Notes: a model not told the origin generated them from the sequence alone. DNA of 32,000 nucleotides from Prochlorococcus sp. MIT 0801 (GCF_000757865.1 NZ_CP007754.1:480001-512000); one strand, 5' to 3'; shown: positions 1 through 25,167, counted from the stretch's first letter. Numbers and translations are program-made.

Positions 1-1384
1 AGAAAATAAAAGACTTCTGATATATACCAAATTCTTCTACTTTAAATGTTCTATTTGAGATAGATAATGTATCATCATTACATTGATAATTATCTGGCAT
101 ATAAATAACTTCTTCAGAATAATATTTCTTATACTCTTGAGGGATTAAATTTTTATCTGCGATTATATAGTCAATTACTTCAGAACCAGTAGTGCAAGGA
201 TAGCCTAAATAAGAAATTTGGATTGGAGCTGGTTTGTATGCAAAAATTCCATGTCGGCTGCTATCTGAATAGCCCATTAAATCAATAGCTATATCAATTT
301 CATCTGATACAACTAATTCAGCAACTTCTAAGTCGTTCAGTTTCTCAACATCACGATAAGAATCCGAGGCATAAATAATACGGTTAGTATAATTATCATG
401 CTTACTTCCAACTAATGAATAAGAAAATAACTTAAATTTATCCCTATTATGTAATTCTAAAACTCTTACGAGCAAATGAGAAACAGCATGTTCGTAAAAA
501 TTACCAGAGAAGTATCCTATGCGGATTCTTTTATGCTGTTTAAGTCTTAACGAAAACCTCTTTCTTTTAAAGTTATGATCAAAATATCGCCTGGCTCTAA
601 TCAATTGCCGACTTGGAGAATCTTCCATAGAAAGAATACCCATAGGACTTATAGGTATCCCCTTAATCCCTAACTCGTTTAACCATAATCTCCTGGTATT
701 AAAATTACTCCAGTCGCAAATCTCTCTTTCAAACATTATTAAAGCCTTTTGAATTGAATAATTTTTATTATCTATTTTTAAGCCTTTTTTCAAAAGAGAT
801 ATAGACTCATAATTATTCTTTAATTTATGATTAGATAATGCTAAATTTAGATATGTATCAGAATAATTATCATTAATTTCAAGAGATTTCATATAACTAT
901 CTAAAGCCTTATTATAAAAACCTTGTTTATAATATAAATTACCAATATTATAAAAAAGTATAAAGGACTTATTATTAATTTCTAGTGCTAGAGAATAAGC
1001 TTTATAAGCTCCCTTATGATCATCTAGATATTGTCTTGCAAGTCCAAGATTACATAATGCATCGAAGTAATCTGGTTTAATTTTAATTGCATTTTCATAA
1101 GCAGAAACTGCATAAGAGTAATTTTTTTGATTTTTAAATGCTAATCCTAATATCGACCATGCACTATAAGAATTTTTATTTAACGTTATAGCTTTTTTAC
1201 AAAAAACTATAACGTTTTTCCAATCTTTATTCTTCGCATAGATAAAAGCGAGATTTTTATAATCATTATGATCAGCCAAGTTTAAGGAAATTAATTTATT
1301 ATAAATGTCCTTAGCTGATTGATATTCTCCTTTTTCAATATAACTTCTTGCAAGAGAATTTTCCTTATCCTTATTGAACGCCAT
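1..1384 (-). CDS. TPR-repeat protein fused to an OGT/SPINDLY-type (GT41) glycosyltransferase domain; partial, C-terminus runs off the window
   Basis: Absent from the ORF track because it has no stop in the window. My hand translation of the minus strand from the ATG at 1384..1382 stays open to position 1 (461 codons). It reads MAFNKDKENSLARSYIEKGEYQSAKDIYNKL..., then several TPR-like repeats. It continues RIGYFSGNFYEHAVSHLLVRVLELHNRDKFKLFSYS ... DIAIDLMGYSDSSRHGIFAYKPAPIQISYLGYPCTTGSEVIDYIIADKNLIP, which matches the conserved core of SPINDLY/OGT family glycosyltransferases. The start lies 17 nt after the stop of the upstream 1146-aa gene, so the two look like an operon. Confidence 0.8.
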   Translation of the reverse strand, partial: MAFNKDKENSLARSYIEKGEYQSAKDIYNKLISLNLADHNDYKNLAFIYAKNKDWKNVIVFCKKAITLNKNSYSAWSILGLAFKNQKNYSYAVSAYENAIKIKPDYFDALCNLGLARQYLDDHKGAYKAYSLALEINNKSFILFYNIGNLYYKQGFYNKALDSYMKSLEINDNYSDTYLNLALSNHKLKNNYESISLLKKGLKIDNKNYSIQKALIMFEREICDWSNFNTRRLWLNELGIKGIPISPMGILSMEDSPSRQLIRARRYFDHNFKRKRFSLRLKQHKRIRIGYFSGNFYEHAVSHLLVRVLELHNRDKFKLFSYSLVGSKHDNYTNRIIYASDSYRDVEKLNDLEVAELVVSDEIDIAIDLMGYSDSSRHGIFAYKPAPIQISYLGYPCTTGSEVIDYIIADKNLIPQEYKKYYSEEVIYMPDNYQCNDDTLSISNRTFKVEEFGIYQKSFIF

Positions 1385-1401
1385 ATAAAAGGTTATGGAA
1401 T

Positions 1402-4400
1402 TTAAATAGATCCTATATCTTTGTATTTTACTCTTTTGGATAAGATATTAATAGCAGGCTGTAAGAGTTCATTATAATTAATCCAACCTCCTAATGATTT
1501 TGAATTAATTGGGGACCTAGCCTGAACACTACTAGCTGTACTAATATTCCTCTTAGTGAGATGCGGAAATTGATATTCGTTATTCCATTCCCAACCAAGC
1601 CAACGTATTAATTTCCGGATTTGATAAGAAGGATTTAAAACTAGTTTATCGTAATTTAACATATATATATTTGACGGAAACTTCGATTTATATTTTAATA
1701 TAGTATCTTCTTGTTCAAGATAAAGTCTTGCAGTCTCTTCTAGTGAAGAAGAAAAATGATTTCCCCGATTATCAAAGTTAGCTCTATAAATCGAAAGAAT
1801 ATTATCTAAGGGGTGCCTATAACAATTAATAATCCTAGAATTAGGTATTAAAGAGCAAATTATACCTGCATATTGATAATTAAAAAGCCATTTATCAGTA
1901 CTAATAGAAGAATTAATTCGATTATGATTCATTTTTTGAATGTAAATTTCAGATAATTTTTTATCTAATACATTTTTATTATTATATTCTTCAAAAGAAT
2001 TCTCAAGAATATTCGTTTCTCCTAAATCAAAAACATCCTTATTCATATTCAAAATAGACTCTAAAAGTGTAGATCCACTTCTTGGCATACCAACAATAAA
2101 AATATGATTAAATTGATTATTAGATATGTTACTCTGATTGTAATAAGTATTAGATATAGCCATTAATTGTTGAGATTTTTGTATTAAGAAATCTGAATCT
2201 GATTTAAATACATTCATCTTATATTGATTGGCTTTTGTTAAAGATAATTGACTATCATTATATTTAGATAAACTATGTTGAATATTTGATCTAGCAAAAT
2301 ATATATGAGATAAACTAATTAAGGATTGATCTTTAAGAATTTCATCAGAGAATAATATATTAAGTATATCTTTATTAAAAGATGAGCTGGCAACAACAGA
2401 TAAAGCATAATAGGCCTTTGCTAATTTTGGATTAATCCTTATTGCCGATTCAATTGACTCTTGAGATTCTCTAATCCTACCCGTATCTCTTAAAATATTA
2501 CCCAAGTTTAAATAAGCTTCAGAAGAATTAGAGTTTATTGAAATAGATTTTTTTATTGTTTGCTCAGCAATTCCTAAGTCACCAAGATCAATATATATAG
2601 CAGAAAGATTTAAATAATAATCTCCTTTTGAGGGATTTAATTTAATTGCCTTTAAAACTGATTTCTTAGCTTGTAGGAAATCTCCAAGATCTCTTTCAAT
2701 AACACCTTTAATTGAATAGGCTTCTGAAAATTCTGGAGTTATATCTATAGCTTTAAGACATAACCTTAATGCCGAGTTTAAGTCTCCAATATCCCTCATA
2801 ATGCTTGCAAGATCAATAATATATTTTGAATTTTTTGGATCAATTGAAATCGATTTCTCAATATATCTTCTAGCTTTAGCAAATTGATTTAATCCTTTTA
2901 AGATAGATGCATAAACAGAATTAGTATGTGCTGAATCTGGGTTAATATAAAGAGAATCCTCTATATATTTTTTTGCCTTTAAATATTTTCCAATCATTAA
3001 ATAAACAATAGAAATATTTGTTAACAAATCAGCACTTTTTGGATATGTTTTAATTCCCTCTTTGTAAATATTTAGAGATAAAATATATTCGTTATTTTCA
3101 AATAATATACCACCATATCTTAAGAACAAATCAATATGATTATAATTATTATTATGACATAACTGATATAACTCTTTAGCTTTCTCAATATTATTATTGT
3201 CATGAAATTGTACTGCCTTTTTAAATATATTTGTTTGTATAAACTTACATTTTTCTTTCACGAAATTATCTTTATTAACTATTCTCATTGCGGGTCCCAG
3301 CATCATTTTATAATTCTTCCATCCATCTAATGATTTCTTATTAATAGGTTCTCGTACTTGAACATTACTAGCTGTTGATACAGTACGGTAATTAAGATGA
3401 GGAGTTAAATATTCATCCATCCAATTAAATCCAATCCATTCTATTAATGATTTGATTTCTTTATCAGGGTTCTTAATTAGAGCATCATAATCAAAACTAT
3501 AAATCAGGTCAGAATACTTTTGTTTATATAAATCCATTATAATCTGATGATTTAAATATACTTTAGAACATTCTCTAATGGAAGAAGCATAATGATTACC
3601 AGTTGCAAAATGAGCTCTATATATTGATAAAATATTATCTAATGGGTTTCTATAGCAATAGATAATTCTGGAATTTTTTATCAACTTAGAAATTACACCA
3701 GTATATTGATAATTGTATAACCACTTATTAGTTGTTATATTGGCTTCAGTTATTTTAAGAATATTTTGCTTATATATAGTGTATAAATTTGAATCAATGT
3801 TATTTTCAATATTTTGTTTCCATTGATAAAATGACTTTTCTAAAATATCTTTTTCACCTAAATCAAAGATTTGATTATTTCTAGTTAATATTGACTCTAG
3901 CAATGTTGATCCACATCTTGGCATACCAACAATAAATATAAATTCAATTTTATTATCTAGATCACTCTGATTATAATGGTCAGATTCTAAATATAAATAT
4001 CTACTTTTTTCTAATATTGGATTAATAATTGGTGGATCTAATTTAGCTTTTATATCGTTAGCAATATTAAGAGAAGATTGACTATCAAAATATTTTCTTC
4101 TTTTATGTAAAATATTAGCTCTAGCAAAGAAAATATTGCTTTTACTTTTTTCATTTTGATTAACCAAAATTTCCTTTGAAAAGAGAAACTTAATACAATC
4201 TTCTTTAGGATTAAATTGCTTAATCTCTGTGATCGATAAATAAGCTTTTGAATATTTGGGTGAAATCTCTATAACGTTTGATAAATAGTTTATTGCTTTT
4301 TTGAAGTCACCAAGATCTTTATATAATATTCCGAGATTATAATTAGCATCTGCATATTTAGAGTCTAACTTAATAGCTTTTGTTAGATATTTAATTGCTT

Positions 4401-4842
4401 CATCATATTCAGATTGTTCTTTTAAAGTGATACCTAAATTATTATATAAACTAGCTAAATTTGGATTAATTTTTATTCCTTTTTTTAATATTATTTTTGC
4501 CTTATTTAATTCTCCCATTTGATAATATAACGACCCAAGATTACTATAGGCATCAACAAATTTAGGGAAATAGTTAATAGATTTTATATACAGATCAATT
4601 GCATCATCTAATTTATTCTCAATTTGTAAAATAGCGGCATAGTTAGTAAAAACTGAAGGGTTTTTTATGTCTGCCTCTACTAAATATATATAACAAGATT
4701 TAGCATTTATAATATCTCCATTTAAATGAAAAGATATTCCAAATTCAATTAATTCATTTTCACTATATCCTTCAAAATCTAAACTTTCAATTAATTTACC
4801 ATCGATAGTGTAAATATATTTTTTTCTAATAATCTCTTTCAT
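1402..4842 (-). CDS. Double-module TPR-sulfotransferase (two TPR-array plus PAPS-type sulfotransferase units in one 1146-aa polypeptide)
   Basis: ORF track, 1146 aa. It carries two PAPS 5-prime-phosphosulfate-binding loops, GMPRCGST (nt 3904..3927) and GMPRSGST (nt 2068..2091). Each is followed by RNPLDNILSIYRA / RHPLDNILSIYRA and a C-terminal STAS-VQ-R-PIN-KS-GGW-NY motif. Each is preceded by 5-7 TPR-like repeats (NLG..Y...G....A...Y.KAI.I.P). Confidence 0.85.
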   Translation of the reverse strand: MKEIIRKKYIYTIDGKLIESLDFEGYSENELIEFGISFHLNGDIINAKSCYIYLVEADIKNPSVFTNYAAILQIENKLDDAIDLYIKSINYFPKFVDAYSNLGSLYYQMGELNKAKIILKKGIKINPNLASLYNNLGITLKEQSEYDEAIKYLTKAIKLDSKYADANYNLGILYKDLGDFKKAINYLSNVIEISPKYSKAYLSITEIKQFNPKEDCIKFLFSKEILVNQNEKSKSNIFFARANILHKRRKYFDSQSSLNIANDIKAKLDPPIINPILEKSRYLYLESDHYNQSDLDNKIEFIFIVGMPRCGSTLLESILTRNNQIFDLGEKDILEKSFYQWKQNIENNIDSNLYTIYKQNILKITEANITTNKWLYNYQYTGVISKLIKNSRIIYCYRNPLDNILSIYRAHFATGNHYASSIRECSKVYLNHQIIMDLYKQKYSDLIYSFDYDALIKNPDKEIKSLIEWIGFNWMDEYLTPHLNYRTVSTASNVQVREPINKKSLDGWKNYKMMLGPAMRIVNKDNFVKEKCKFIQTNIFKKAVQFHDNNNIEKAKELYQLCHNNNYNHIDLFLRYGGILFENNEYILSLNIYKEGIKTYPKSADLLTNISIVYLMIGKYLKAKKYIEDSLYINPDSAHTNSVYASILKGLNQFAKARRYIEKSISIDPKNSKYIIDLASIMRDIGDLNSALRLCLKAIDITPEFSEAYSIKGVIERDLGDFLQAKKSVLKAIKLNPSKGDYYLNLSAIYIDLGDLGIAEQTIKKSISINSNSSEAYLNLGNILRDTGRIRESQESIESAIRINPKLAKAYYALSVVASSSFNKDILNILFSDEILKDQSLISLSHIYFARSNIQHSLSKYNDSQLSLTKANQYKMNVFKSDSDFLIQKSQQLMAISNTYYNQSNISNNQFNHIFIVGMPRSGSTLLESILNMNKDVFDLGETNILENSFEEYNNKNVLDKKLSEIYIQKMNHNRINSSISTDKWLFNYQYAGIICSLIPNSRIINCYRHPLDNILSIYRANFDNRGNHFSSSLEETARLYLEQEDTILKYKSKFPSNIYMLNYDKLVLNPSYQIRKLIRWLGWEWNNEYQFPHLTKRNISTASSVQARSPINSKSLGGWINYNELLQPAINILSKRVKYKDIGSI

Positions 4843-5130
4843 TATTCTTGAAAAACCTAGAAAATAGAAATTACTAATTAATTAGAGAAGAAACATAGAA
4901 AATATAGAAAAGGATGGTGAAACTCATTTGTTTAAATAATTAAAAATTATGGAGCCATGAATAATTGAGTCTCTAAGGAAATGTTTGACATAGAGCTTGT
5001 TTAACAACTGAGCCATGGCCCAAATCTTAGTTATTGAAATGATCGCAAACAATCTAAAAAACATTGTTATTATACTTTACCATCAAAAAACACCAATACA
5101 CATCGAGTAAAAAACCAATGCTAATTAGAT

Positions 5131-5152
5131 TCTCCGGTAAATCTCCGGTGAA
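5131..5152. repeat. Tandem 11-bp direct repeat TCTCCGGTAAA / TCTCCGGTGAA in a divergent intergenic region
   Basis: Read directly: tctccggtaaa (5131..5141) followed immediately by tctccggtgaa (5142..5152), with one mismatch. It has a GC-rich core in an otherwise AT-rich 476-bp spacer between divergently transcribed TPR-enzyme genes. Confidence 0.6.
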
Positions 5153-5318
5153 TTTGTCACAATTGCTAATTACTTATGTACTAATGGATTGAGTCTAATT
5201 CCATCTCGCAAAAAGATCAACTTCTACTTGATTGTAGCCTTTCAATTTCTTTTGAAATTAAAAAACCAATTTTAATATATAATTATCATTAATAGACCCT
5301 TAAAAACCATCAATAGAC

Positions 5319-7013
5319 GTGAGTAATAGGAAAAAAGTTAAAAGAACTGAAAGATATAAATTCCCCACCTTCTCAGTGCCATTTAATTTAGATGAAATCA
5401 AGGAAAATTTTACTATTAATACAAACACTACATCTAATATTTCTAAGGATGTCCTTAATCAAGCATTTAATGCTCATACAAATGGAAATATTAAAGAAGC
5501 TATAGAATCTTATCAATATCTTATCAGTCAAGGATTTAATGATCCCAGAGTTTATTTAAACTATGGAAGTATATTGAAAAATCTTGGAAAATTAGAGGAA
5601 GCAGAATTAATAATCCGTAAAGGTATAGAACTAAATCCTAACTTTGCTATGGGTTATTTTAATTTAGGAATTATTTTAATAGATCTTTCTAAACCTAATG
5701 AAGCAGAGTTAGCAACTAGAGAAGGAATAAAACTTAATCCAAATTTTGCTATAGGTTACTTTAATTTGGGAATTATCTTAAAAACTCTTGGGAAAATGAA
5801 TGAGGCAGTATTAGCGATAAATAAAGCTATTGAATTAAATCCAAATCATTCTAATTCATATTTTCATCTTGGAACTATATTAAATATTCTAGGTCAAAAG
5901 AAAGAAGCAGAGATAGAAATTAAAAAAGCTATTAAAATCAATCCAAATTTTTTAGAAGCTTATATTAACTTAGGAATAATTTTAAGAGATCTTGGTAAAA
6001 TAAAGGAAGCAATATTGGTGACAAGAAGAGCTATTGAAGTTGACCCTAACATTGCTGAATCTTATTCTAACCTCGGATCATTATTAGTTGATCTAGGTAA
6101 TCTTGATGAAGCAGAAATTGCAATGAATAAAGCAATTACTATAAATCCTAATAATATGAAATTTAAGTCAAATTTGATAAGCCTACTTAGTATCTATAAA
6201 CCATGTGATAATAATTCTAATCAATTATATATTATCAATGAGGAATTTAACAAAATTAATCTTTCTTATAGTGATAGTGAATTTATTAGTGATATTAAAG
6301 TAATGAATATTTATAGAAAAGGATTAGAAATTTATAAGAAACATAATCTATCTTTGGAGACCGATGCTTATCAAATATATAGAAGTAATGAGATAAATCT
6401 AAATTGTGAAAGACATCATATGGTTTTTGAAAAAAATAAGATAATCCCAGCATTTTGTTTCAATTGTTATAAAGTTCAAATTGAAACTAATTCAATAATA
6501 GAATTTATTAAAATATTCTTAGTATTTAATCGAATAAAATTAGAAAATAACAATACTAGAAAATGTATGGTTGAATTGAGACCAAATATTCCAGGTTTTT
6601 ATAAAGGTTTGATTTATTGTAGTGATTTAAATGAAGCATATCTTATTTCTAATCAGCTAGATAATATTATTCAAAAAAATGTTAGAAGCAACTTACAGTC
6701 GATAGTTAAAAGAGGTTGTTCTGAATTCCAAAAAGAATTCCCTGAATATAAAGAGATAAATAGATTTGGAAGTCAAACAATGGAATATAATAAAGAATGG
6801 AGAAGAATTGAAAATGAAGCTGACAAGGGTTATGGAAACTGGGGTAAATCTCATAAAACTATAAATGAATTTAATTTAAATAACTTTCTTATTATGAGAA
6901 ACTGGTTAGCTTATGCTCATAAGATAGGGGATAAAAGTATATATAAAATATCCGAAGAAATAATAAAAGGTACAGAAAAGTTTAAATATTTGAATAGATC
7001 TATTAATACTTAG
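5319..7013 (+). CDS. TPR-repeat protein with an unassigned Cys/His-containing C-terminal domain
   Basis: ORF track, 564 aa, with a GTG start at 5319 and no nearby ATG. Residues ~45-290 are TPR repeats and are identical to the paralog at 7145..9223 through LGNLDEAE. Residues ~295-564 carry no motif I can assign to a known family. They contain C363-x2-H366-H367-x12-C380-x2-C383 (CERHH...CFNCYKV). Confidence 0.75.
   Translation: MSNRKKVKRTERYKFPTFSVPFNLDEIKENFTINTNTTSNISKDVLNQAFNAHTNGNIKEAIESYQYLISQGFNDPRVYLNYGSILKNLGKLEEAELIIRKGIELNPNFAMGYFNLGIILIDLSKPNEAELATREGIKLNPNFAIGYFNLGIILKTLGKMNEAVLAINKAIELNPNHSNSYFHLGTILNILGQKKEAEIEIKKAIKINPNFLEAYINLGIILRDLGKIKEAILVTRRAIEVDPNIAESYSNLGSLLVDLGNLDEAEIAMNKAITINPNNMKFKSNLISLLSIYKPCDNNSNQLYIINEEFNKINLSYSDSEFISDIKVMNIYRKGLEIYKKHNLSLETDAYQIYRSNEINLNCERHHMVFEKNKIIPAFCFNCYKVQIETNSIIEFIKIFLVFNRIKLENNNTRKCMVELRPNIPGFYKGLIYCSDLNEAYLISNQLDNIIQKNVRSNLQSIVKRGCSEFQKEFPEYKEINRFGSQTMEYNKEWRRIENEADKGYGNWGKSHKTINEFNLNNFLIMRNWLAYAHKIGDKSIYKISEEIIKGTEKFKYLNRSINT
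5366..6117 (+). repeat. Copy 1 of a 752-bp near-identical direct repeat (TPR-coding module)
   Basis: Base-by-base comparison with 7198..7949 (offset 1832). I found a single difference, T at 5477 versus C at 7309, a synonymous His codon. Flanks on both sides do not align. Confidence 0.9.
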
Positions 7014-7144
7014 AATACATTAAATTTAATCAATTAAGAATGTATACTTCAAAGTTTGAAAAATTTTTTGAAGATCTATTATAAAATCAGAACAAAATAT
7101 GTTAAAATTTAAGAAATTTTTTATAGGTCAAGTATAAATCTCAT

Positions 7145-9223
7145 ATGGAGAAGATAGGCGAGGAGAAGCAAGGAAAAAAAAAAGTAACTAGAGAAATCAC
7201 CTTCTCAGTGCCATTTAATTTAGATGAAATCAAGGAAAATTTTACTATTAATACAAACACTACATCTAATATTTCTAAGGATGTCCTTAATCAAGCATTT
7301 AATGCTCACACAAATGGAAATATTAAAGAAGCTATAGAATCTTATCAATATCTTATCAGTCAAGGATTTAATGATCCCAGAGTTTATTTAAACTATGGAA
7401 GTATATTGAAAAATCTTGGAAAATTAGAGGAAGCAGAATTAATAATCCGTAAAGGTATAGAACTAAATCCTAACTTTGCTATGGGTTATTTTAATTTAGG
7501 AATTATTTTAATAGATCTTTCTAAACCTAATGAAGCAGAGTTAGCAACTAGAGAAGGAATAAAACTTAATCCAAATTTTGCTATAGGTTACTTTAATTTG
7601 GGAATTATCTTAAAAACTCTTGGGAAAATGAATGAGGCAGTATTAGCGATAAATAAAGCTATTGAATTAAATCCAAATCATTCTAATTCATATTTTCATC
7701 TTGGAACTATATTAAATATTCTAGGTCAAAAGAAAGAAGCAGAGATAGAAATTAAAAAAGCTATTAAAATCAATCCAAATTTTTTAGAAGCTTATATTAA
7801 CTTAGGAATAATTTTAAGAGATCTTGGTAAAATAAAGGAAGCAATATTGGTGACAAGAAGAGCTATTGAAGTTGACCCTAACATTGCTGAATCTTATTCT
7901 AACCTCGGATCATTATTAGTTGATCTAGGTAATCTTGATGAAGCAGAAAAAGTATTGTTTAAGGCTATTAACCTTAATCCAAATTTAGCAAAATCATATA
8001 ATAGTCTAGGGATTTTATTTAAAACTTCAGGAAAAATATTAGAAGCAGAAAAGTTTCTTCGTCAAGCTATTAATCTTGAACCAGACTTTCCAGAGTCCTA
8101 TTATAATTTAGGTACTTTAATGAGAGATATTGGTAAATTAAAAGAAGCTGAGGATTTATTAGTTAAATCTATTCAAATTGATCCTTATATTGCTAAATCT
8201 TATTTTGTACTTTCTACTTTAAAATCAACAAGTAAAGATAAAATCTGGAAAGATAAACTCTTTTCAGAATCCATATTAACTAATCTACTCTCAAATAATA
8301 GATTTGATATTTTTTTTGCTAGAGCAAATATTCTTCATAGGGAGAAAAATTATATTGAAAGTGCCAAATATTTAAAATTAGCTAATTCCTTAAAATTTAA
8401 GAACCAACAAAATTATTCTAATAATATAATTCTCAAAACAAAAATGCTACTTATAGATTCAGAGAATTCAATTTGTAGTTATAATCAGAATATTAGTCGA
8501 AAAGCAATCACACAAGAAAGTATTTTTATAGTAGGTATGTTTAGAAGTGGGTCTACACTTTTAGAATCTATAATCAGTATGAATCCTAATGTTGTAGATC
8601 TAGGTGAAACAAATATTCTTGAAGAATCTTACGAACAATTGAAGAAATATAATGAGAATAATCAAGATTTTAATCTTTCTAATTTATACTATGAGAAGGT
8701 AAATCATTTAAAATACAATTCAAAAATATCTACTAATAAGGCACTATTTAATTATCAATATTCGGGAATAATAGCTAAACAAATCTTGAATTCTAAAATT
8801 ATTCATTGCTTTAGAAACCCTCTAGATAATATTCTATCAATTTACCGTGCAAACTTTGCCCATAAAAATGAATATGCTTCCTCATTAATTGAATGTACAA
8901 AGATTTATTTAGATCAAGACCATATAATGGAACTATATAAAAAGAAATATCGTGAAAAAATCTATGATTTAAATTACGATTTATTAGTGTCCAATCCTAA
9001 AGAAGAAATTAAATCATTAATCTCCTGGATGGGTTGGGAATGGAATGATTTATATCTCTCGCCTCATTTAAATAAACGCTCAATATCTACAGCAAGTAGT
9101 GTTCAAGTTCGTTTTCCAATTAATTCAAAATCTATTGGTGGTTGGAAAAACTACAAAGATATACTACGGCCTGCTATTGAAATCCTTAAAAAGACTTATA
9201 AATATCGAAATATTATCTCATGA
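7145..9223 (+). CDS. TPR-repeat sulfotransferase
   Basis: ORF track, 692 aa, with an N-terminal TPR array of about 9 repeats. The C-terminal domain has GMFRSGSTLLESI (PAPS loop), RNPLDNILSIYRANF and STASSVQVRFPINSKSIGGWKNY. It aligns along its length with both sulfotransferase modules of the 1146-aa protein. Confidence 0.85.
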   Translation: MEKIGEEKQGKKKVTREITFSVPFNLDEIKENFTINTNTTSNISKDVLNQAFNAHTNGNIKEAIESYQYLISQGFNDPRVYLNYGSILKNLGKLEEAELIIRKGIELNPNFAMGYFNLGIILIDLSKPNEAELATREGIKLNPNFAIGYFNLGIILKTLGKMNEAVLAINKAIELNPNHSNSYFHLGTILNILGQKKEAEIEIKKAIKINPNFLEAYINLGIILRDLGKIKEAILVTRRAIEVDPNIAESYSNLGSLLVDLGNLDEAEKVLFKAINLNPNLAKSYNSLGILFKTSGKILEAEKFLRQAINLEPDFPESYYNLGTLMRDIGKLKEAEDLLVKSIQIDPYIAKSYFVLSTLKSTSKDKIWKDKLFSESILTNLLSNNRFDIFFARANILHREKNYIESAKYLKLANSLKFKNQQNYSNNIILKTKMLLIDSENSICSYNQNISRKAITQESIFIVGMFRSGSTLLESIISMNPNVVDLGETNILEESYEQLKKYNENNQDFNLSNLYYEKVNHLKYNSKISTNKALFNYQYSGIIAKQILNSKIIHCFRNPLDNILSIYRANFAHKNEYASSLIECTKIYLDQDHIMELYKKKYREKIYDLNYDLLVSNPKEEIKSLISWMGWEWNDLYLSPHLNKRSISTASSVQVRFPINSKSIGGWKNYKDILRPAIEILKKTYKYRNIIS
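7198..7949 (+). repeat. Copy 2 of the 752-bp near-identical direct repeat (TPR-coding module)
   Basis: See copy 1. Identity starts at CACCTTCTCAGTGCC and ends at GATGAAGCAGAAA in both copies. Confidence 0.9.
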
Positions 9224-9496
9224 TATAAAATTACTAACTGGTTAAATTTTTCTCTATATTTTAACATAATATCCGCTTCCATGAGATCTATATTTTCTGC
9301 CACAAAAGGTAGAAAAGCTAATAGTTAATTCTTAATAAGGTATGTAAAAATCATTGTTCAATAAACAATCATGAGAAATTGCTTTCTGTACGATATAAAT
9401 AATTTCTCTGGATGGATTGTCTGCGGATACCTTGTATAATTATCAACTATGAATTTATAGTAAGTACTCATTTCGTTATATAATTTTTATATCTGT

Positions 9497-11470
9497 TTAT
9501 TTTCTGGTTATTTTTTTTCCATTTAGATAAAGTACATCAAGTTTTGTAGTTACAAGGAAATTAATAGCTTCTGCAGGTTTCTCAACAATAGGTTCTTTCG
9601 GACCATTAAATGATGTATTAAGTACAACTGAACATCCTGATAGTTCTTTAAATTTCTTAAGTATTAAAAATAGTCCACCTGTTTCCACTGTAACAGTTTG
9701 AACCCGTGCAGAACCGTCGACATGAGTAATTGCAGGCAGATTATTTTTTAGAACTTGACCAGTGAAAAGCATAAATGGAGACTCATTTTGCAACCCACTA
9801 AAGTACATATCAACATCTTCTTTCAAAACTGCAGGTGCGAAAGGACGCCATTTTTCTCTTTGTTTTAACTCATTCATGCGTTTCCAATTTTCAGAGTAAG
9901 TGGGATTGCTCAATAGTGAACGATGTCCCAGAGCACGAGGTCCTATTTCGCTGCGACCTTCAAACCAAGCGATGATTTTATTTTCATGAAGGTCTATCGC
10001 TGCTGATTGTTCACAATTAATATTGTCTTCGATATTTATTTGATCTTGAAAGCTTTTAATTGCTTCATTAATACTATTTTTACTATTTTTTAAACCAAGA
10101 TAAGGAAGAGATAAATATGATTTATTTGAAATTTCTAGACTAGGGTTGTCTAGTACATGGTGATAAGCATATTGAGCTCCTCCCAAAGATAATCCACTGT
10201 CATCACAAAAAGGAGGAATATAGATATTTTTAAAAGCACTTTCTTTAAATAAAAGTGAATTGGCAGGGCAATTTAGTCCTGTACCACCTGCATAGCAAAT
10301 AGTATCAATATCAATTTCGTTGTTAAGACAAATATTTGAAATACTTTCGACTGTTTGTAATAAAGTTCTTTCGAAAAGTTTTTGAGTACTAGCTGCAATG
10401 TCAATGCATATAGGTTCAAGAATTCGGTTACAATTTCCTATTGGATCGAGATCGTATCCCATTGATTTAGCTAATTTTATGCAATTTTTTAGCCAACTTT
10501 TTCTTAAATTTTTTATACCTCTGAAACGCAGGTCGTAAGTATTACCAACCATGTCTTCATTGAAAAAAATAGGTTTACCATAAGGGGCTAGACCCATCAA
10601 TTTCCCAGCTGCTCCAAAATAGTCAAACCCTAAGAAATTTCCAACTCGAATATATAAATCACCAATAGTAAGATGATGTGGAAAAATAGGAAGAATTTTA
10701 TTTGATTCTCCATAAAAAATCATTCCGTTAAGAGGACCAGTTTCTAGCAATCCTCCATCATGAGTGAGAATTATAGAATTCTTAGATGTACAGTTATAAA
10801 AAGCAGATGCAGCATGAGCAGCATGATGTTGAATAGCAACGCCAGGTATGCTTCTCCCCTTTAAAGTAACTCTTAGGGGAAAGTGAAAAAGAGATTCTGA
10901 TTTTTCTTTTTCATTTAATAAATTTTTAATCTTTAAATCAGAAATATCTTTTAAACCCATTTCTTGTTTCCAAAAATTAAGTTCAGCAAAATCTCTCAAT
11001 GATTTTTTTATGCCTAAGTCCTCTTTTTTTACTTTCTTATACTCAGGAAATTGATTTTTATAACTTCTTGATGCTACTAAATCATCACAATAAACATTAT
11101 TAATTATGGAACCACCCAAACGAGTATTAAAATTATTATTATTTTCATTGAAATTCTCATTATAAAGAATTGATTTTATTTTCTTGTTAGGGTGCTCTCC
11201 ATATTCAATTTGTAATTCTTTAGGTCGATCAACCACTACAAGTTCATAAGCTTGAGTAGAAGTAATAGCAATCATATCAATATCTTCTATTTCTAATTCT
11301 GCATTTAATAAGGATTCCTCAATATGTGAAACATTAATTCCAAATGAATGCTTTGCTCTGTTGTATCTTTCTCTAATTAAATTACATTTAGGAATACCAT
11401 TCACTAATATAGCAATACCGGCATCATGCCCAAAATGAAGTCCTAAAATTACAGTTTTATTATTTTTCAT
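9497..11470 (-). CDS. Carbamoyltransferase, NodU/CmcH/TobZ family
   Basis: ORF track, 657 aa. Family hallmarks are ILGLHFGHDAGIAIL at the N-terminus, HHAAHAASAFY, CYAGGTGLNCPANS and, in the C-terminal domain, HVDGSARVQTV and VLNTSFN. Confidence 0.9.
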   Translation of the reverse strand: MKNNKTVILGLHFGHDAGIAILVNGIPKCNLIRERYNRAKHSFGINVSHIEESLLNAELEIEDIDMIAITSTQAYELVVVDRPKELQIEYGEHPNKKIKSILYNENFNENNNNFNTRLGGSIINNVYCDDLVASRSYKNQFPEYKKVKKEDLGIKKSLRDFAELNFWKQEMGLKDISDLKIKNLLNEKEKSESLFHFPLRVTLKGRSIPGVAIQHHAAHAASAFYNCTSKNSIILTHDGGLLETGPLNGMIFYGESNKILPIFPHHLTIGDLYIRVGNFLGFDYFGAAGKLMGLAPYGKPIFFNEDMVGNTYDLRFRGIKNLRKSWLKNCIKLAKSMGYDLDPIGNCNRILEPICIDIAASTQKLFERTLLQTVESISNICLNNEIDIDTICYAGGTGLNCPANSLLFKESAFKNIYIPPFCDDSGLSLGGAQYAYHHVLDNPSLEISNKSYLSLPYLGLKNSKNSINEAIKSFQDQINIEDNINCEQSAAIDLHENKIIAWFEGRSEIGPRALGHRSLLSNPTYSENWKRMNELKQREKWRPFAPAVLKEDVDMYFSGLQNESPFMLFTGQVLKNNLPAITHVDGSARVQTVTVETGGLFLILKKFKELSGCSVVLNTSFNGPKEPIVEKPAEAINFLVTTKLDVLYLNGKKITRK

Positions 11471-11473
11471 TAG

Positions 11474-12157
11474 CTAATTAAGGTCTTTTAAAATTCTTCC
11501 AAGTAAGGAATATGCATCGACAAAGTCAGGATTAAGTTGTATCGCTTTACGAGTAGATAATTCGGCCTCTTTTAATTTACCAAGATCTTTTAATATCTTA
11601 CCTAAGCTGGCATGGGCTTCGGCTAAATCAGGTTTAAGTTCAATAAATTTTCTTATTGATAATTCAGCTTCTTTTAATTTACCTAGACTTTTTAATATAT
11701 TTCCAAGATTGTAATAAGCCTTTGTGAAATTTGGATTAAGTTTTATTGCTTTTTTATGCATAAACTCTGCTTCTTTTAACTTTGATAGTTCTTGTAAAAT
11801 ATTTCCAAGATTGAAATAATACATAGCATTATTGGGATTATGTTCAATTGCCTTACGTGTAAAAAATTCTGCTTCACTTGAGTTCCCACGACTTTTTAAA
11901 ATTGCTCCATAATTAGAAAAAACTCTGTGATCATTAAATCCTTGATTTATACAATATTGATAATACTTTGCTGCTTCTGAAATGTTGCCTTGTGAATGAA
12001 AGTTTAGTGCTTGATTAATTATTTGAGCGGGAGAAGGCTTATTAGATTTATTGCTATTGATAGTAAAAATTTCTGCGGTTTCACCTAAAGTAATTTGAAC
12101 TGGGATGATGTTCAATTTAGATACTTCTTTTTTCTGATCTGCTTTTCTCTCAGTCAC
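11474..12157 (-). CDS. Stand-alone TPR-repeat protein, in frame with the downstream carbamoyltransferase
   Basis: ORF track, 227 aa. Its pre-TPR segment and first repeat (EIFTINSNKSNKPSPAQIINQALNFHSQGNISEAAKYYQYCINQGFNDHRVFSNYGAILK) are paralogous to the N-termini of the 5319 and 7145 genes. The TAG stop at 11476..11474 is followed by one codon (CTA) and then the carbamoyltransferase ATG at 11470, all in the same frame. Confidence 0.8.
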   Translation of the reverse strand: MTERKADQKKEVSKLNIIPVQITLGETAEIFTINSNKSNKPSPAQIINQALNFHSQGNISEAAKYYQYCINQGFNDHRVFSNYGAILKSRGNSSEAEFFTRKAIEHNPNNAMYYFNLGNILQELSKLKEAEFMHKKAIKLNPNFTKAYYNLGNILKSLGKLKEAELSIRKFIELKPDLAEAHASLGKILKDLGKLKEAELSTRKAIQLNPDFVDAYSLLGRILKDLN

Positions 12158-12276
12158 ATCTATTTTTTGAAAGGATCAATTAGTTGACATTATAGCTTGA
12201 ACCTAAGTTATAACTTTCAAAGAAATTATCGATTCAATTTTATAGCTGGATTGTCAGCAGTTGGCGAACTAGTTGG

Positions 12277-13029
12277 TTAACTCATAACCATTCCACCATC
12301 AACTTGAATTACCTGACCGGTTATGTAAGAAGCGGAAGGATCTGCTGCTAAAAACCTCACTGTTCCTGCAACATCTTCAGGGTTCCCGAATCGTCCAAGC
12401 GGTATTGCAGAAAGGATTGATTCACTGTTCAGATCTTTTGTCATATCAGTTGAAATAAAACCAGGAGCAACTGCATTTACAGTGATCCCTCTGCTCGCAA
12501 ATTCTTTTGCAGCACTTTGTGTGAGACCTACCACTCCTGCCTTGGCTGCAGAATAATTTGCTTGCCCTGGGTTGCCCATTAACCCAACTACAGACGTTAT
12601 GTTGATAATTCTTCCTTTTCTTTGCTTCAACATCTGCCTTGATACAGCTCTTGTGCAATAAAAAACACCACTCAAGTTAAGGTCTAAAACTTTTTGCCAA
12701 TCGTCTGTTTTCATTCTCATTAAAAGGCCATCTTTAGTTATCCCTGCGTTGTTGACCAGAACATCAATTTTATTATTTTTCTCCAATACTGTTTTTATTA
12801 ATTCATTTACCGAGTTTTCACTAGAAATATCAGCTTGAAGGGGGTATCCCTTTCCTCCAAAGGAGTTTATTTCTGATACGACTTTATTTGCATTCTCCAA
12901 AGATGAAGAATAATTGATGATTACTTCTGCTCCTTCCTTCGCTAGCAAAATCGCAATTGCCTTACCAATCCCCCTGCTTGCGCCAGTTACAAGCGCAGTC
13001 TGACCTTCAAGTAATTTTGATAATGTCAT
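12277..13029 (-). CDS. fabG: 3-oxoacyl-[acyl-carrier-protein] reductase
   Basis: 250 aa. It has the SDR signature TGASRGIGKAIA, NNAG, and the Y-x3-K catalytic pair (YSAAKAG). Full-length similarity to FabG. Confidence 0.93.
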   Translation of the reverse strand: MTLSKLLEGQTALVTGASRGIGKAIAILLAKEGAEVIINYSSSLENANKVVSEINSFGGKGYPLQADISSENSVNELIKTVLEKNNKIDVLVNNAGITKDGLLMRMKTDDWQKVLDLNLSGVFYCTRAVSRQMLKQRKGRIINITSVVGLMGNPGQANYSAAKAGVVGLTQSAAKEFASRGITVNAVAPGFISTDMTKDLNSESILSAIPLGRFGNPEDVAGTVRFLAADPSASYITGQVIQVDGGMVMS

Positions 13030-13188
13030 AATCTTATGATTTTAAAATCCTTAGAATGGGATGCTTATTTTATTTAACTTACTATTGAGCTACTTGCTTT
13101 TTGAAAAGACTTTAAGCTAGACCAGTAAAAATAGTTATTTTTACCGGTGGAATATATTGAATAAATAATCAATGAAGGGGGATCAGTT

Positions 13189-13866
13189 TTGCATTTGTTA
13201 ATTGCGGCTGCAGGGAGTGGAAGTCGAATGGGTGCTGATAGAAATAAACTCCTTTTGAAGGTTGCAGGTAAGACGGTTTTAGAGTGGACTTTGAAAGCAG
13301 CTTTCGAGGCTAAAACAATTTCTTGGATTGGAATTATTGGACAACCCAAAGATAAAGACTCCATTTGTTCAATCCTTGATAACTCAGTAAAGTCAGTTCA
13401 ATGGATCAATGGAGGATGCACTAGACAGCAGTCAGTTCAACTGGGATTGGCGGCCCTTCCGTATAGTGCTAAGTCTGTGATGATTCATGATGGGGCAAGA
13501 TGCTTGGTGAGACCATTCGTTTTTGATGAAATCTCAAAGATTGTTTCCAAGGGGCAATCTGTTATTGCTGCGGCACAGGTAACTGACACCATAAAGAAGG
13601 TTGATAAAGATGGTGAGATTATTGAGAGCCCTCCTCGCTCAGATTTATGGGCGGCACAAACACCTCAAGGTTTTCCAGTGAATAAACTGAAGCATGCTCA
13701 CAGTGAAGCAATCGCCAAAGGATGGAATGTAACCGATGATGCATCCTTGTTTGAACGTTTGGGATTGCCAGTGAAAATATATGATGCAGGCCCTTCAAAT
13801 ATTAAAGTGACAACTCCATTTGATCTCGTAATTGCAGAGTCTCTATTATCTAGTTTAAAAGACTAA
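13189..13866 (+). CDS. ispD: 2-C-methyl-D-erythritol 4-phosphate cytidylyltransferase
   Basis: 225 aa with a TTG start. [13 protein letters not shown] is the nucleotide-binding N-terminus, and AQTPQGF is the IspD motif. Confidence 0.92.
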
Positions 13867-14725
13867 GACTTCCTTTATCGCCATTCAAGATAGCTTGACT
13901 ACCTAGTGGAAGTGATGCATTGCCACAACAATGTCCAATGGGCAGACTTGAAACAATTGGAATTTTAAGGTCTTGTGTTCGATCTTTGAAAATATCAATA
14001 AGCTTAAACGTCTTTGTTTCGTCGACGTTCTTCTCATTATCACAACCTATAAACGAGCCAAAACCTAGGCCAGATAGCTGTTGTAGAATTCCAGCTAATC
14101 TTAAGTGAGTTAGCATCCTGTCAATCCTGTACGGAGCTTCTCCAATATCTTCGATGATTAAAATGGATTTTTTGAAATTTGGAAGATGTTCAGTCCCAAT
14201 TAAGTGAGTCAGGACAGTTAGGTTGCCAACTATTAGAGGCCCCTTTGAGATCCCGCCTCCCCACGGGTCTCCATAAATATCTGGTACATAGTTGCCAAAC
14301 AAAATTGATTTAAGCCTATCTTTGCTCCAATCTGGTTCGGAACCTAATGTTGTAATTAGTGGACCATGAACGCCTCCTTGAAATCCACCGGCTAGACGTG
14401 CAAGAAGTATGGAAGTCAAATCAGAGAAGCCAATCATCCAACCTTCTTTCCATGGTTGTTTTTTTTCTAGCAGTCTTGCCGATCCCCACCCACCTCTAGC
14501 AAAAGCCAAAAGAGGGTAATGATTGTTTGAGTGTAATTCATTAAATCTAACTTCATCACTACCTGCTAGATAACCCCATGACCTATCTATTTCATTGATA
14601 TGGTTACATATTAATCCCCACTCCTGAAGGACTTTGATCCCAGAGTGAAGATCTTCTTTTTGGGTTATTGGCGAACTTGCCGCAACTATGTGGAAAAGAT
14701 CGCCTTTCTTTATGGGCTCCGTCAT
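13850..14725 (-). CDS. LD-carboxypeptidase (peptidase S66, LdcA-like)
   Basis: 291 aa. [24 protein letters not shown] and [11 protein letters not shown] are typical of muramoyltetrapeptide LD-carboxypeptidases. It overlaps the ispD 3-prime end convergently by 17 nt. Confidence 0.85.
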
Positions 14726-14750
14726 CTGCGAAACTTTATTAGTATATTAA

Positions 14751-15641
14751 TTAATTAATCTTGCTGAAGATCATGCCAAGAAGTAATAAACTTCCAAGCC
14801 TAACTTGATTGCTGAAATGCAAACCTGAAGTCTTAATACATTTTGATTTTGAACTTAATAAAAAAACCTCTCTTTGCATTCCTAAAGTAGTTATCAACCA
14901 AAAAGGCCAATATATTAATCCCAAATCTGCTTTAAAGGCAGCAAGACCTAGAAAAAAACAAGTTAAAGAATAGCAAAAAGAAACTGTTTTTATTGACTTT
15001 CTTCCGAGACTGATCGCACTGCTATTTAGACCAATTAGTTTGTCTTCTCTTTCATCTGCCATTGCATAAACAGTATCAAAGCCGAAAGTCCAGAAAATAG
15101 TTGCAAGCCAACAAAATATCAATGTTAGTCCTCCTGCTAAAGAAGATTGACTTGCTGCCCAAGGTATTAGAACTGAAAACCCCCAGCAAATAGAAAGAAT
15201 AAGTTGGGGATATTTAAACCATCTTTTCGCTGATGGATATAAGAAAATAAAAGGTAATGATAAGGATGCAAGTAGAAGGCATAAATTTCTACTTTCTTGT
15301 GGGATTGAAAGAACTATAAATAGACTTAAGAACAACATTAAAATTAGCAGTATCCATGCAGACTTTAGAGAAACTTTGCCATTAGCTAATGGTCTCTCTT
15401 TTGTTCTCAATACCTTCTTGTCAAACTTTCTGTCCCAAATATCATTAGCAATACATCCTGCACCACTTACAAATAATCCACCTGAAATTATTATTCCCAA
15501 CAAAAATAGAGAAGGAGGGGCTGTAGGAGTTAGCCAAAGAGACCACCCGGCGGGGATGAAAAGTATCAATCTTCCACTGGGTTTGTTCCATCTAAGAAGT
15601 TGAAGATAATATCCCATTTTGTGGGTAAGAAGATTATTCAC
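14751..15641 (-). CDS. ubiA: 4-hydroxybenzoate polyprenyltransferase (UbiA family, plastoquinone pathway)
   Basis: 296 aa polytopic membrane protein with the UbiA motif NDIWDRKFDKKVLRTKERPLANG and a second Asp-rich motif, YAMADEREDKLIG. Confidence 0.9.
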   Translation of the reverse strand: MNNLLTHKMGYYLQLLRWNKPSGRLILFIPAGWSLWLTPTAPPSLFLLGIIISGGLFVSGAGCIANDIWDRKFDKKVLRTKERPLANGKVSLKSAWILLILMLFLSLFIVLSIPQESRNLCLLLASLSLPFIFLYPSAKRWFKYPQLILSICWGFSVLIPWAASQSSLAGGLTLIFCWLATIFWTFGFDTVYAMADEREDKLIGLNSSAISLGRKSIKTVSFCYSLTCFFLGLAAFKADLGLIYWPFWLITTLGMQREVFLLSSKSKCIKTSGLHFSNQVRLGSLLLLGMIFSKIN

Positions 15642-15726
15642 TAAAATTCAGATTGATAATGATTTTTAAGGTCTTCTCAATGGGGTACTGAGGGTGTCAG
15701 AGTATTGAGGTTAAACCTACTCATTC

Positions 15727-17855: not shown

Positions 17856-17973
17856 TTAAACACCTTTTGGGTATTAAATTTATTCTAAAGGCTCTGTAAA
17901 GAGGTTTGTCTCTAAAAGATAATTTGTCTCTGATTTAAATAATTTTTAAAATATATTCCAAAATTTTTTCTAT

Positions 17974-19637: not shown

Positions 19638-19647
19638 CTATTTGAAT

Positions 19648-20613: not shown

Positions 20614-20620
20614 TTATTGA

Positions 20621-21157: not shown

Positions 21158-21240
21158 TACAGACGTTCACCTATGTATAGATATTAGACCAGAATGGACA
21201 CATAAAGGGTTATTAATCTCTGCCAAGACTAGGTTTTGAA

Positions 21241-22288: not shown

Positions 22289-22519
22289 CTCAAGAGGTTG
22301 AGTGGCCTCATATGAATTGGCTTTTTCCTTGATCCTTATTGGAGGAGGAGCTTTGAAAATATTTTCGTTTTTGTTGGAGCTATTCAGGTTGATTTAGCTT
22401 AATAGGCTTATTTTAGTAGGAAATTGAGTTTGTAAGTAGTAAATAAGAAATTTTGCTAGATATTTTATAAGTGATAAATAGATAAATTATTGATGATGCC
22501 TATGTATGAATGAAGTTTT

Positions 22520-25145: not shown

Positions 25146-25167
25146 ATTTAATTAATAATTTGTATTT

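What the first reader, a model, noticed from the sequence alone, without database searches (positions are those of the whole stretch)
6118..7010. Orphan C-terminal domain with a C-x2-H-H-x12-C-x2-C motif where paralogs carry a sulfotransferase
Residues ~267-564 of the 5319..7013 protein follow the shared TPR module. They have no PAPS loop, no GT motif and no other signature I can recognise. They contain C363-E-R-H366-H367 ... C380-F-N-C383-YKV, a four-ligand pattern typical of a structural or catalytic zinc site. Further Cys residues follow (KCMVELR, LIYCSD, KRGCSEF), and there is a Trp/Lys-rich tail. In every neighbouring paralog this position is a transferase domain. By analogy it may be an undescribed modifying or substrate-binding domain that uses the same TPR scaffold.
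Basis: partly seen in the sequence, partly recalled or inferred. Interest (0 to 1): 0.65.

Follow-up and report, generated by a model that had tools for sequence, protein, structure and literature searches.

The report
Unannotated metal-binding domain fused to TPRs
The tail of this Prochlorococcus-like gene is an intact, strongly conserved protein domain with a four-cysteine metal site that matches no described family or solved structure, is widespread in the ocean's most abundant bacteria, usually next to sulfotransferase genes, and has stand-alone relatives in phage capsid-assembly gene blocks.

Summary
ORF 5319-7013 (+) encodes a leader, a TPR array (residues 45-283) and a 280-residue C-terminal region with no hit in Pfam, NCBIfam, PADLOC, PHROGs or PDB sequences. 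It is not a remnant. An exhaustive profile search finds 1229 clusters of relatives, always C-terminal to TPRs, in Prochlorococcus, SAR11, SUP05 and other marine bacteria, and all 82 genome copies are open ORFs. The motif needs correcting. C363, C380 and C383 are invariant, H366 is 96% conserved and H367 is not conserved. A fourth cysteine, C467, is 100% conserved. A stand-alone phage family is homologous (hhalign 99.6%, E 1.8e-23). It keeps the four cysteines but has Trp in place of H366, so the shared site is probably Cys4. An AlphaFold model (pLDDT 93.5, pTM 0.91) shows a ferredoxin-like beta-alpha-beta-beta-alpha-beta core. Foldseek finds no PDB match below E 0.001. The gene lies next to a sulfotransferase gene in 33 of 80 genome loci, and one relative is fused to a GT41 glycosyltransferase. 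My best reading is a new effector domain of a modular TPR-effector family, probably an enzyme. Its chemistry is unknown.

The parts
5319..7013 (+). Whole gene: leader + TPR array + orphan C-terminal domain (564 aa, GTG start, no signal peptide or TM segment)
5451..6167 (+). TPR array (residues 45-283, about 7 repeats)
   Evidence: Pfam TPR_1/2/8/11/17 hits
5366..6117 (+). 752-nt segment identical (1 mismatch at 5477) to 7198-7949 in the downstream TPR-sulfotransferase gene. This is recent gene conversion or duplication of the leader and TPR module. Identity ends inside the last TPR, at the start of the finding.
6171..6356 (+). Helical N-terminal part of the orphan region (residues 285-346), conserved only in the TPR-fused branch
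6357..6965 (+). Core domain shared with the phage family (residues 347-549): Cys knuckle, ferredoxin-like beta-alpha-beta-beta-alpha-beta and C-terminal helices
   Evidence: hhalign 99.6%, E 1.8e-23; AF2 model pLDDT 93.5
6405..6407 (+). C363 codon, invariant (proposed metal ligand 1, at the N-terminus of helix 363-373)
6414..6416 (+). H366 codon: 96% conserved in the TPR branch, Trp in the phage branch, so not a universal ligand
6456..6467 (+). C380-F-N-C383 knuckle immediately before strand beta1. Both Cys are invariant in both branches.
6708..6725 (+). K464-R465-G-C467-S-E469 motif at the end of strand beta4, invariant in both branches. C467 is the proposed fourth ligand.
6561..6581 (+). K415-C-M-V-E419-L-R421 on strand beta2. 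K, E and R are invariant in both branches (candidate functional face, together with K385 and Y433).
7145..9223 (+). Downstream paralogue: same leader and TPR module + sulfotransferase domain
1402..4842 (-). Upstream divergent paralogue: two tandem TPR + sulfotransferase units in one ORF

Best explanation
Residues 285-564 form a functional, cytoplasmic, cysteine-stapled alpha/beta domain that founds an unannotated superfamily.

Shown here:
- The domain is conserved and intact across more than 1200 sequence clusters.
- It always follows a TPR array in bacteria.
- Its roughly 200-residue core is homologous to a stand-alone protein in the head-assembly gene block of about 45-kb podovirus-like phages.
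- It folds with high confidence as a short Cys knuckle followed by a ferredoxin-like beta-alpha-beta-beta-alpha-beta sheet and C-terminal helices.
- No related solved structure was found.

Inferred:
- C363, C380, C383 and C467 bind one structural metal ion, probably Zn, that ties the first helix and the knuckle to the end of strand beta4.
- The residues invariant in both branches (K385, K415, E419, R421, Y433, K464, R465, E469, W529, D538) form a binding or catalytic site.
- In the bacterial proteins the TPR array recruits a target, most likely a protein or cell-envelope component. This is the same target handled by the neighbouring TPR-sulfotransferase, TPR-GT41 and TPR-methyltransferase paralogues.
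- The domain then carries out or reads a modification on that target. I favour an enzyme of unknown chemistry working alongside sulfation.
For: - Orphan status.
- Size and architecture of the family: 535 hits; 1229 representatives at E<=1e-3 and 362 at E<=1e-30, with the domain always C-terminal; N-termini are TPRs.
- Intactness: 82 open ORFs in 82 genome and contig loci (L001-L082, two of them duplicate places).
- Conservation.
- Phage homology. Conserved position between the major head protein and the adaptor.
- Fold: pLDDT 78.9 then 93.5, pTM 0.81 then 0.91. No PDB or BFVD match at E<0.001.
- Topology argument for the Cys4 site: C380/C383 precede beta1 and C467 follows beta4. These strands are antiparallel neighbours in a ferredoxin-like sheet (secondary structure; established fold knowledge).
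- Context: adjacent to a sulfotransferase gene in 33 of 80 loci, against 5.3% for other genes in the same loci, and in several phyla. One Magnetococcales protein fuses TPR-GT41-TPR to this domain.
- Paralogues with the same leader and TPR carry sulfo-, methyl- and glycosyl-transferase domains.
- No signal peptide or TM segment.
Against: - No metal, ligand, substrate or activity has been measured.
- I could not read model coordinates, so the proximity of the four Cys is inferred from topology only.
- H366 is 96% conserved in the TPR branch, so a Cys3His site in that branch is not excluded.
- Adjacency to sulfotransferases is not phylogenetically independent, because many SAR11 loci are syntenic. 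The orientation is often convergent, so it may only reflect clustering of TPR-fusion paralogues in low-GC islands.
- Many invariant polar residues suggest catalysis but do not prove it.
- The phage homologue sits among structural genes, which could point to a non-enzymatic assembly role.
Confidence: 0.5

Rival explanations
1. The domain is a non-catalytic recognition or adaptor module. It binds a ligand or partner, for example a sulfated or phosphorylated group or a structural protein, and works with the TPRs as a scaffold or reader rather than as an enzyme.
For: The Cys4-type site is typical of structural zinc. The phage homologue lies inside the head-assembly block between the major head protein and the adaptor. 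No known catalytic motif is recognisable.
Against: About ten charged or aromatic residues are invariant across bacterial and phage branches that share only about 20% identity. That is more usual for active sites. In paralogues the same position always holds enzymes.
Confidence: 0.25
2. The domain binds nucleic acid through its exposed sheet, like other ferredoxin-like folds (LANA/E2 DNA-binding domains, RRM).
For: The best, sub-threshold, Foldseek hits are LANA DNA-binding domains (E about 0.02, prob 0.9), with RRM and PII-like proteins further down. The sheet carries invariant K and R residues. The pI of the bacterial domain is about 9.
Against: TM 0.22/0.46 and rmsd about 12 A are not a real match. 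There is no RRM or DNA-binding Pfam hit. The phage branch has pI about 6.5. High pI is expected in Lys-rich, AT-rich genomes. The genomic context is modification enzymes, not nucleic-acid genes.
Confidence: 0.08
3. The four cysteines hold an iron-sulfur cluster or form a redox-active CxxC disulfide pair rather than binding zinc. The domain would then be a redox enzyme or sensor.
For: Four invariant Cys with C-x16-C-x2-C...C spacing, plus two further frequent Cys (C416, C434), could ligate Fe-S.
Against: The carriers are iron-frugal oligotrophs (Prochlorococcus, SAR11; established knowledge). The family does not match any Fe-S family in Pfam. A CxxC knuckle next to a helix-start Cys is a common zinc geometry.
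Confidence: 0.12
4. The region is a decaying remnant or a recombination chimera with no function. It was left behind when the TPR module of the neighbouring sulfotransferase gene was copied onto it.
For: 752 nt of the TPR module are identical to the neighbour, with a sharp boundary at 6117/6118.
Against: The window copy keeps every residue that is at least 97% conserved in the family. It aligns end to end at about 60% identity with homologues that all have their own TPRs. All 82 relatives are uninterrupted ORFs. TPR + this domain is therefore the ancestral architecture, and only the TPRs were homogenised.
Confidence: 0.02

Closest known systems
TPR-sulfotransferase paralogues of the same island (Pfam Sulfotransfer_3 / Sulfotransfer_1 C-termini)
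   Same: They share the N-terminal leader (F-x-V-P-F-x-L-x-E-I-x-E-N) and the TPR array, which in the window is identical at DNA level. They share the low-GC island and are frequently adjacent in many marine taxa.
   Different: The C-terminal domain has no PAPS-binding loop, no Pfam sulfotransferase hit and a different predicted fold: an antiparallel ferredoxin-like sheet with a Cys knuckle.
GT41 / O-GlcNAc-transferase-type proteins (TPR array + catalytic domain acting on proteins)
   Same: The architectural logic is the same, with a TPR array delivering a target to a C-terminal effector. TPR-GT41 genes are neighbours in 4 of the 80 loci, adjacent in 3, and GT41 is fused to this domain in one Magnetococcales protein.
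   Different: There is no GT41 or any glycosyltransferase signature in the domain itself, and the fold is unrelated.
Unannotated stand-alone phage proteins (P0268-P0387, 250-330 aa) in podovirus-like contigs
   Same: The core of about 200 residues is homologous (hhalign 99.6%, E 1.8e-23). The four Cys, K385, K415, E419, R421, Y433, KRxC[ST]E, W529 and D538 equivalents are all kept.
   Different: They have no TPRs and a different N-terminal 60 residues. Trp replaces H366. They are encoded between the major head protein and the adaptor genes. Their function is also unknown.
Ferredoxin-like domains such as gammaherpesvirus LANA DNA-binding domain, RRM and PII/SbtB
   Same: They share the beta-alpha-beta-beta-alpha-beta order of the central about 85 residues and give weak Foldseek hits.
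   Different: E>=0.02, TM<0.5 and rmsd 5-12 A, with no sequence signal. The Cys knuckle, N-terminal helices and C-terminal helical bundle are extra.
Structural Cys4 / Cys3His zinc knuckles (zinc-ribbon and treble-clef class)
   Same: A CxxC knuckle is combined with a ligand at a helix start, and the ligands are invariant.
   Different: The ligands are spread over 105 residues and embedded in a larger alpha/beta domain. There is no match to any zinc-finger Pfam family.

Membership tests
Sulfotransferase (PF00685 / PF13469) | Profile match including the 5'-phosphosulfate-binding loop (e.g. G-x-P-R-S-G-S-T-L in the paralogues) | tested here: not met
   There is no Pfam hit in residues 267-564 at E<=0.1, while the paralogues hit at 1e-24 to 1e-49. 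None of the 28 relatives hits either.
Glycosyltransferase family 41 or other GT | Profile match to a GT catalytic domain | tested here: not met
   GT41 is found only as a separate domain in P0265/L060.
TPR proteins | 34-residue helix-turn-helix repeats matching the TPR profiles | tested here: met
   Residues 45-283 hit TPR_1, TPR_2, TPR_8 and TPR_11 at E 1e-28 to 1e-46. This applies to the N-terminal half only, not to the finding.
Structural zinc site (Cys4 or Cys3His) | Four conserved Cys/His ligands | tested here: met
   C363, C380, C383 and C467 are 97-100% conserved in both the bacterial and phage branches.
   H367 is variable. H366 is Tyr or Gln in 8 of 222 relatives and Trp in 78 of 79 phage homologues.
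Structural zinc site (Cys4 or Cys3His) | Ligand atoms within bonding distance of one metal, and metal present | not testable with these tools
I have only a topological argument. Metal analysis needs protein.
New superfamily: TPR-fused marine bacterial domain + stand-alone phage protein | Significant profile-profile match over the core and shared invariant motifs | tested here: met
   hhalign probability 99.6%, E 1.8e-23, 186 columns. Shared invariants are listed.
LANA/EBNA1/E2-type DNA-binding domain | Structural superposition with significant score (TM>0.5, low rmsd) | tested here: not met
   Best E 0.017-0.02, TMq 0.22-0.25, TMt 0.44-0.52 and rmsd about 11-12 A with both models.
RRM | RNP1/RNP2 motifs and a profile match | tested here: not met
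   There is no RRM Pfam hit. An RRM appears only at Foldseek E 0.22, prob 0.23.
Known anti-phage defence proteins (PADLOC) | Profile match of the domain | tested here: not met
   Only the TPR part gives hits. The domain and the phage homologues give none.

The most novel reading that the evidence does not exclude
The domain is the catalytic module of a previously unrecognised class of protein- or envelope-modifying enzyme with a new fold, a Cys4-stapled ferredoxin-like core. Marine bacteria aim it with TPR arrays, together with sulfotransferases, at a shared target, and podoviruses use it during head assembly. It would then define a new enzyme superfamily linking cell-surface or protein diversification in Prochlorococcus and SAR11 with phage capsid maturation.
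Probability: 0.3. Interest if true: 0.8.

Novelty: new variant of a known kind. Interest (0 to 1): 0.58.

Why it matters
TPR-fusion genes fill the low-GC variable islands of Prochlorococcus and SAR11, the most abundant phototroph and heterotroph in the sea. These islands are thought to shape the cell surface and phage susceptibility. This domain is one of the effector heads of that family, and more than a thousand sequence clusters carry it. Yet it has no annotation, no structural relative and no proposed chemistry. Its persistent pairing with sulfotransferases gives a concrete handle for experiments. So does its homology to a conserved gene in a phage head-assembly block. Together they would tell us what these island proteins modify and whether phages use the same activity. 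If it is an enzyme, it is a new fold and a new family. If it is only a binding module, it is still a new Pfam-level domain worth naming.

Tried and rejected
- Searches failed because 6118 is out of frame. I used 6117 or 6171 afterwards.
- Pfam, NCBIfam, PADLOC and PHROGs scans of the domain, of 28 relatives and of the phage homologues gave nothing credible.
- PDB sequence searches with the single sequence and with profiles A1, A2, A3 and A4 gave only noise: SidC at E 0.54, isocitrate dehydrogenase at 0.017 and the PTK2B FERM domain at 7e-4 over a short stretch.
- Foldseek against PDB (twice) and BFVD found no hit below E 0.001. The repeated LANA hits have rmsd about 12 A, so I rejected them as membership.
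- tblastn against GenBank phages with the domain and with a phage homologue found no match.
- The longest relatives were checked for informative extra domains. They hold only TPRs, plus GT41 once.
- The promoter and terminator scan around the gene was no better than shuffled sequence.
- I found no pilin genes near the SAR11 copies.
- Five literature searches found nothing on this domain.
- By inspection I considered and rejected papain-like, GIY-YIG, ADP-ribosyltransferase, YkuD and palm-domain motifs. The spacing and residues do not fit. This is my own reading, not a tool test.

Full report
**What is in the window**

The window is AT-rich. Its core genes are typical of Prochlorococcus: fabG, ispD, an S66 peptidase, ubiA, ppx, petA/petC and tatC. 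They are syntenic with Prochlorococcus single-cell genome AG-402-A08. The core runs at about 31-43% GC, mostly 33-39%. The first 12.2 kb are an island at 24-32% GC, mostly about 24-28%.

The island holds these genes:
- A double TPR-sulfotransferase ORF (1402-4842, -).
- The target ORF (5319-7013, +).
- A TPR-sulfotransferase (7145-9223, +).
- A carbamoyltransferase (9497-11470, -).
- A TPR-only ORF (11474-12157, -).

**Checking the observation**

The target ORF has 564 codons and a GTG start. Residues 45-283 are TPRs. Nothing in Pfam matches residues 267-564.

The start coordinate 6118 is one base out of frame, because codon 267 begins at 6117. It does mark a real boundary. Bases 5366-6117 are identical, bar one mismatch, to 7198-7949 in the next gene. 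So the leader and TPR module of the two genes were homogenised recently, and the C-termini diverge from that exact point, inside the last TPR.

**Orphan status**

- The domain, 28 relatives and its phage homologues hit no model in Pfam-A, NCBIfam, PADLOC or PHROGs.
- Single-sequence and profile searches of all PDB sequences give only noise.
- Five literature searches found no description.
- The only relevant context is that TPR Pfams are enriched in low-light Prochlorococcus (PMC11357015). SAR11 hypervariable regions are low-GC, surface-polysaccharide islands that include sulfotransferases (bioRxiv 10.64898/2026.04.03.716430; PMC2217521).

**Not a remnant: a large family**

- A word-indexed search found 535 relatives. 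Nearly all of the 120 listed have TPRs in front, apart from short, probably partial, sequences, and none has a Pfam hit on the C-terminus.
- An exhaustive HMMER scan of 1.84 billion representatives found 1229 clusters at E<=1e-3 and 362 at E<=1e-30. The domain is always at the C-terminus.
- The ten longest representatives contain only TPRs in front. One protein has the order TPR-GT41-TPR-domain.
- In species-representative genomes the carriers are Prochlorococcus, many Pelagibacteraceae, SUP05, Oceanospirillaceae, Njordibacter, Rhodospirillaceae, Rhodobacteraceae, Puniceispirillum, Halieaceae, Magnetovibrio and Magnetococcales.
- All 82 loci carry an uninterrupted ORF.
- The window copy is about 60% identical to its nearest relatives. 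It keeps every position that is at least 97% conserved.

**The cysteine/histidine pattern**

Conservation in 222 diverse relatives:

| Residue | Conservation |
|---|---|
| C363 | 100% |
| C383 | 100% |
| C467 | 100% |
| C380 | 99.5% |
| H366 | 96% (Tyr or Gln otherwise) |
| C434 | 93% |
| C416 | 86% |
| H367 | not conserved |

Other invariant residues are K385, K415, R421, G466, E469, W494, E498, D502 and W529.

**A phage branch**

A scan of IMG/VR found one distant relative, a 246-residue stand-alone protein next to a major head protein. It seeds a family of at least 282 proteins of 250-330 residues, none annotated.

Profile-profile comparison with the bacterial domain gives 99.6% probability, E 1.8e-23, over residues 347-549 of the window protein.

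In four independent contigs of 12.9-47 kb the gene order is conserved:
- portal
- a 276-285-aa protein
- the major head protein
- a protein of about 310-316 aa
- this gene
- an overlapping ORF of about 160-200 aa
- a 279-284-aa gene with a faint SU10-adaptor Pfam hit
- a large protein of about 805-828 aa

Comparing the two branches shows what is universal:
- C363 (97% in phages), C380, C383 and C467.
- K385, K415, E419, R421, Y433, K464, R465, S/T468, E469, W529, A533 and D538.

H366 is Trp in 78 of 79 phage proteins.

**Structure**

With 28 sequences AlphaFold2 gave pLDDT 78.9 and pTM 0.81. With 129 sequences, including the phage branch, it gave pLDDT 93.5 and pTM 0.91. Both models have the same secondary structure, in domain numbering where 1 = residue 285:
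- Helices 18-27 and 41-57, then a short strand 68-71.
- Helix 79-89, starting at C79 (= C363).
- A short helix 94-98 carrying C96/C99 (= C380/C383).
- Beta1 100-106, alpha 109-121, beta2 130-134, beta3 144-150, alpha 153-170 and beta4 177-181. This is a ferredoxin-like beta-alpha-beta-beta-alpha-beta unit.
- C183 (= C467) right after beta4, followed by four more helices.

In that fold beta1 and beta4 are antiparallel neighbours. The start of beta1 (C380/C383) and the end of beta4 (C467) should therefore meet, which fits a Cys4 staple. This step is inferred, because I could not read the coordinates.

Foldseek against the PDB with either model, and against BFVD, found nothing below E 0.001. The best hits are LANA DNA-binding domains at E about 0.02, with TM 0.22/0.46 and rmsd about 12 A. 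Below them come generic ferredoxin-like proteins such as PII/SbtB, RRM and eIF4E-like proteins. I read these as generic resemblance of the core, not membership.

**Genomic context**

I called ORFs in all loci and clustered them. The gene sits among other TPR-fusion genes.
- The commonest neighbour class is TPR + sulfotransferase, with 41 proteins.
- Pfam confirms Sulfotransfer_3/1, GT41, FkbM and class-I methyltransferase C-termini on neighbours.
- Several further TPR-fused C-termini are also unannotated.
- The gene is directly adjacent to a sulfotransferase gene in 33 of 80 non-duplicate loci (8 of 21 Prochlorococcus, 25 of 59 others). Only 5.3% of the other genes in the same loci are adjacent to one.
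- Caveats: many SAR11 loci share one syntenic slot (rpe, heparinase II/III-like, purH, pterin dehydratase, this gene, a convergent TPR-sulfotransferase, lonN-like, ubiH-like, ftsK). The orientation is not operon-like.

The protein has no signal peptide or membrane segment. A reduced, metal-binding Cys cluster is therefore plausible.

**Interpretation**

Shown:
- A real, selected domain that is new to the databases and carries an invariant four-cysteine set.
- A confidently predicted alpha/beta fold without a solved relative.
- Obligatory TPR fusion in bacteria, and a stand-alone form in phage morphogenesis modules.
- Non-random adjacency to sulfotransferase genes, and one fusion with GT41.

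Inferred:
- The cysteines bind a structural metal, probably zinc.
- The invariant K/E/R/Y residues on the sheet and the KRxC[ST]E segment form the functional site.
- The TPRs deliver a target shared with the neighbouring transferases.
- The domain is more likely an enzyme than a passive binder. About ten polar residues survive at about 20% identity between branches, and every paralogous position is enzymatic.

I put about 0.9 on the statement that this is a functional, unannotated, Cys-stapled domain family. I put about 0.4-0.5 on the modifying-enzyme reading. The rivals are a non-catalytic reader or adaptor, nucleic-acid binding, and an Fe-S or redox site. A dead remnant is effectively excluded.

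**Novelty and score**

TPR + effector is a known architecture (GT41, TPR-sulfotransferases), but this effector domain is new at family level and apparently at fold level. I file it as a new variant of a known kind. There is a fair chance (about 0.3) that it is a new enzyme superfamily.

Unknown domains are common, which limits surprise. The abundance of the carriers, the clean structural prediction, the sulfotransferase link and the phage head-module homologues make it a good experimental target. Interest 0.58.

Noticed in passing
window 5366-6117 and 7198-7949: A 752-nt direct repeat (one mismatch at 5477) covers the leader and TPR module of two adjacent genes that have unrelated C-terminal domains. 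The sharp boundaries indicate recent gene conversion or module swapping between TPR-fusion paralogues.
   Followed up: partly
window 1402-4842 (-): A single 1146-aa ORF holds two tandem TPR + sulfotransferase units. The internal period is about 1833 nt, and the two repeat families detected at that spacing (150-160 nt each) are about 70-72% identical.
   Followed up: partly
window 11474-12157 (-) and 9497-11470 (-): A 227-aa TPR-only ORF with the family leader ends at a TAG three bases before the ATG of a NodU/CmcH-type carbamoyltransferase. This looks like a split or translationally coupled TPR + carbamoyltransferase member of the same modular family.
   Followed up: partly
window 1-12200 versus 12200-32000: The TPR-fusion genes lie in an island of about 24-28% GC (up to about 32% over the carbamoyltransferase gene), inserted next to fabG. 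The core runs at about 31-43% GC, mostly 33-39%. The syntenic Prochlorococcus AG-402-A08 locus (L002/L005) has only the orphan-domain gene directly upstream of fabG at this site, with one TPR-sulfotransferase gene about 6 kb away.
   Followed up: partly
loci L010, L013, L014, L019 (Prochlorococcus): Other TPR-fusion paralogues with the same N-terminal leader have C-terminal domains that also get no Pfam hit at E<=1e-6. By eye they look 2OG-oxygenase-like, GT9-like, TylF-like and SGNH-like. This island family therefore holds several more unannotated effector domains.
   Followed up: no
L084-L089 (phage contigs), e.g. L086 6963-7910 and 8800-9285: In the phage group that carries the stand-alone homologue, the conserved ORF of about 310-316 aa upstream and the overlapping ORF of about 160-200 aa downstream also have no PHROG or Pfam annotation.
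   Followed up: no
L060 5046-8822 (Magnetococcales MAG; protein P0265): A 1258-aa protein has the order TPR - GT41 glycosyltransferase - TPR - orphan domain. This is the only fusion of the domain to an annotated enzyme that I saw.
   Followed up: partly
SAR11 loci L022, L028, L054, L056, L057, L065 and others: The orphan-domain gene and a convergent TPR-sulfotransferase occupy a fixed slot between a pterin-4a-carbinolamine dehydratase gene and a Lon-N-domain gene. A heparinase II/III-like gene lies three genes upstream, two genes in L061 and L074.
   Followed up: no
window 30648-30723 and 31147-31221 (-): tRNA-Asp(GTC) and tRNA-Trp(CCA) genes are present. They are unrelated to the finding.
   Followed up: no
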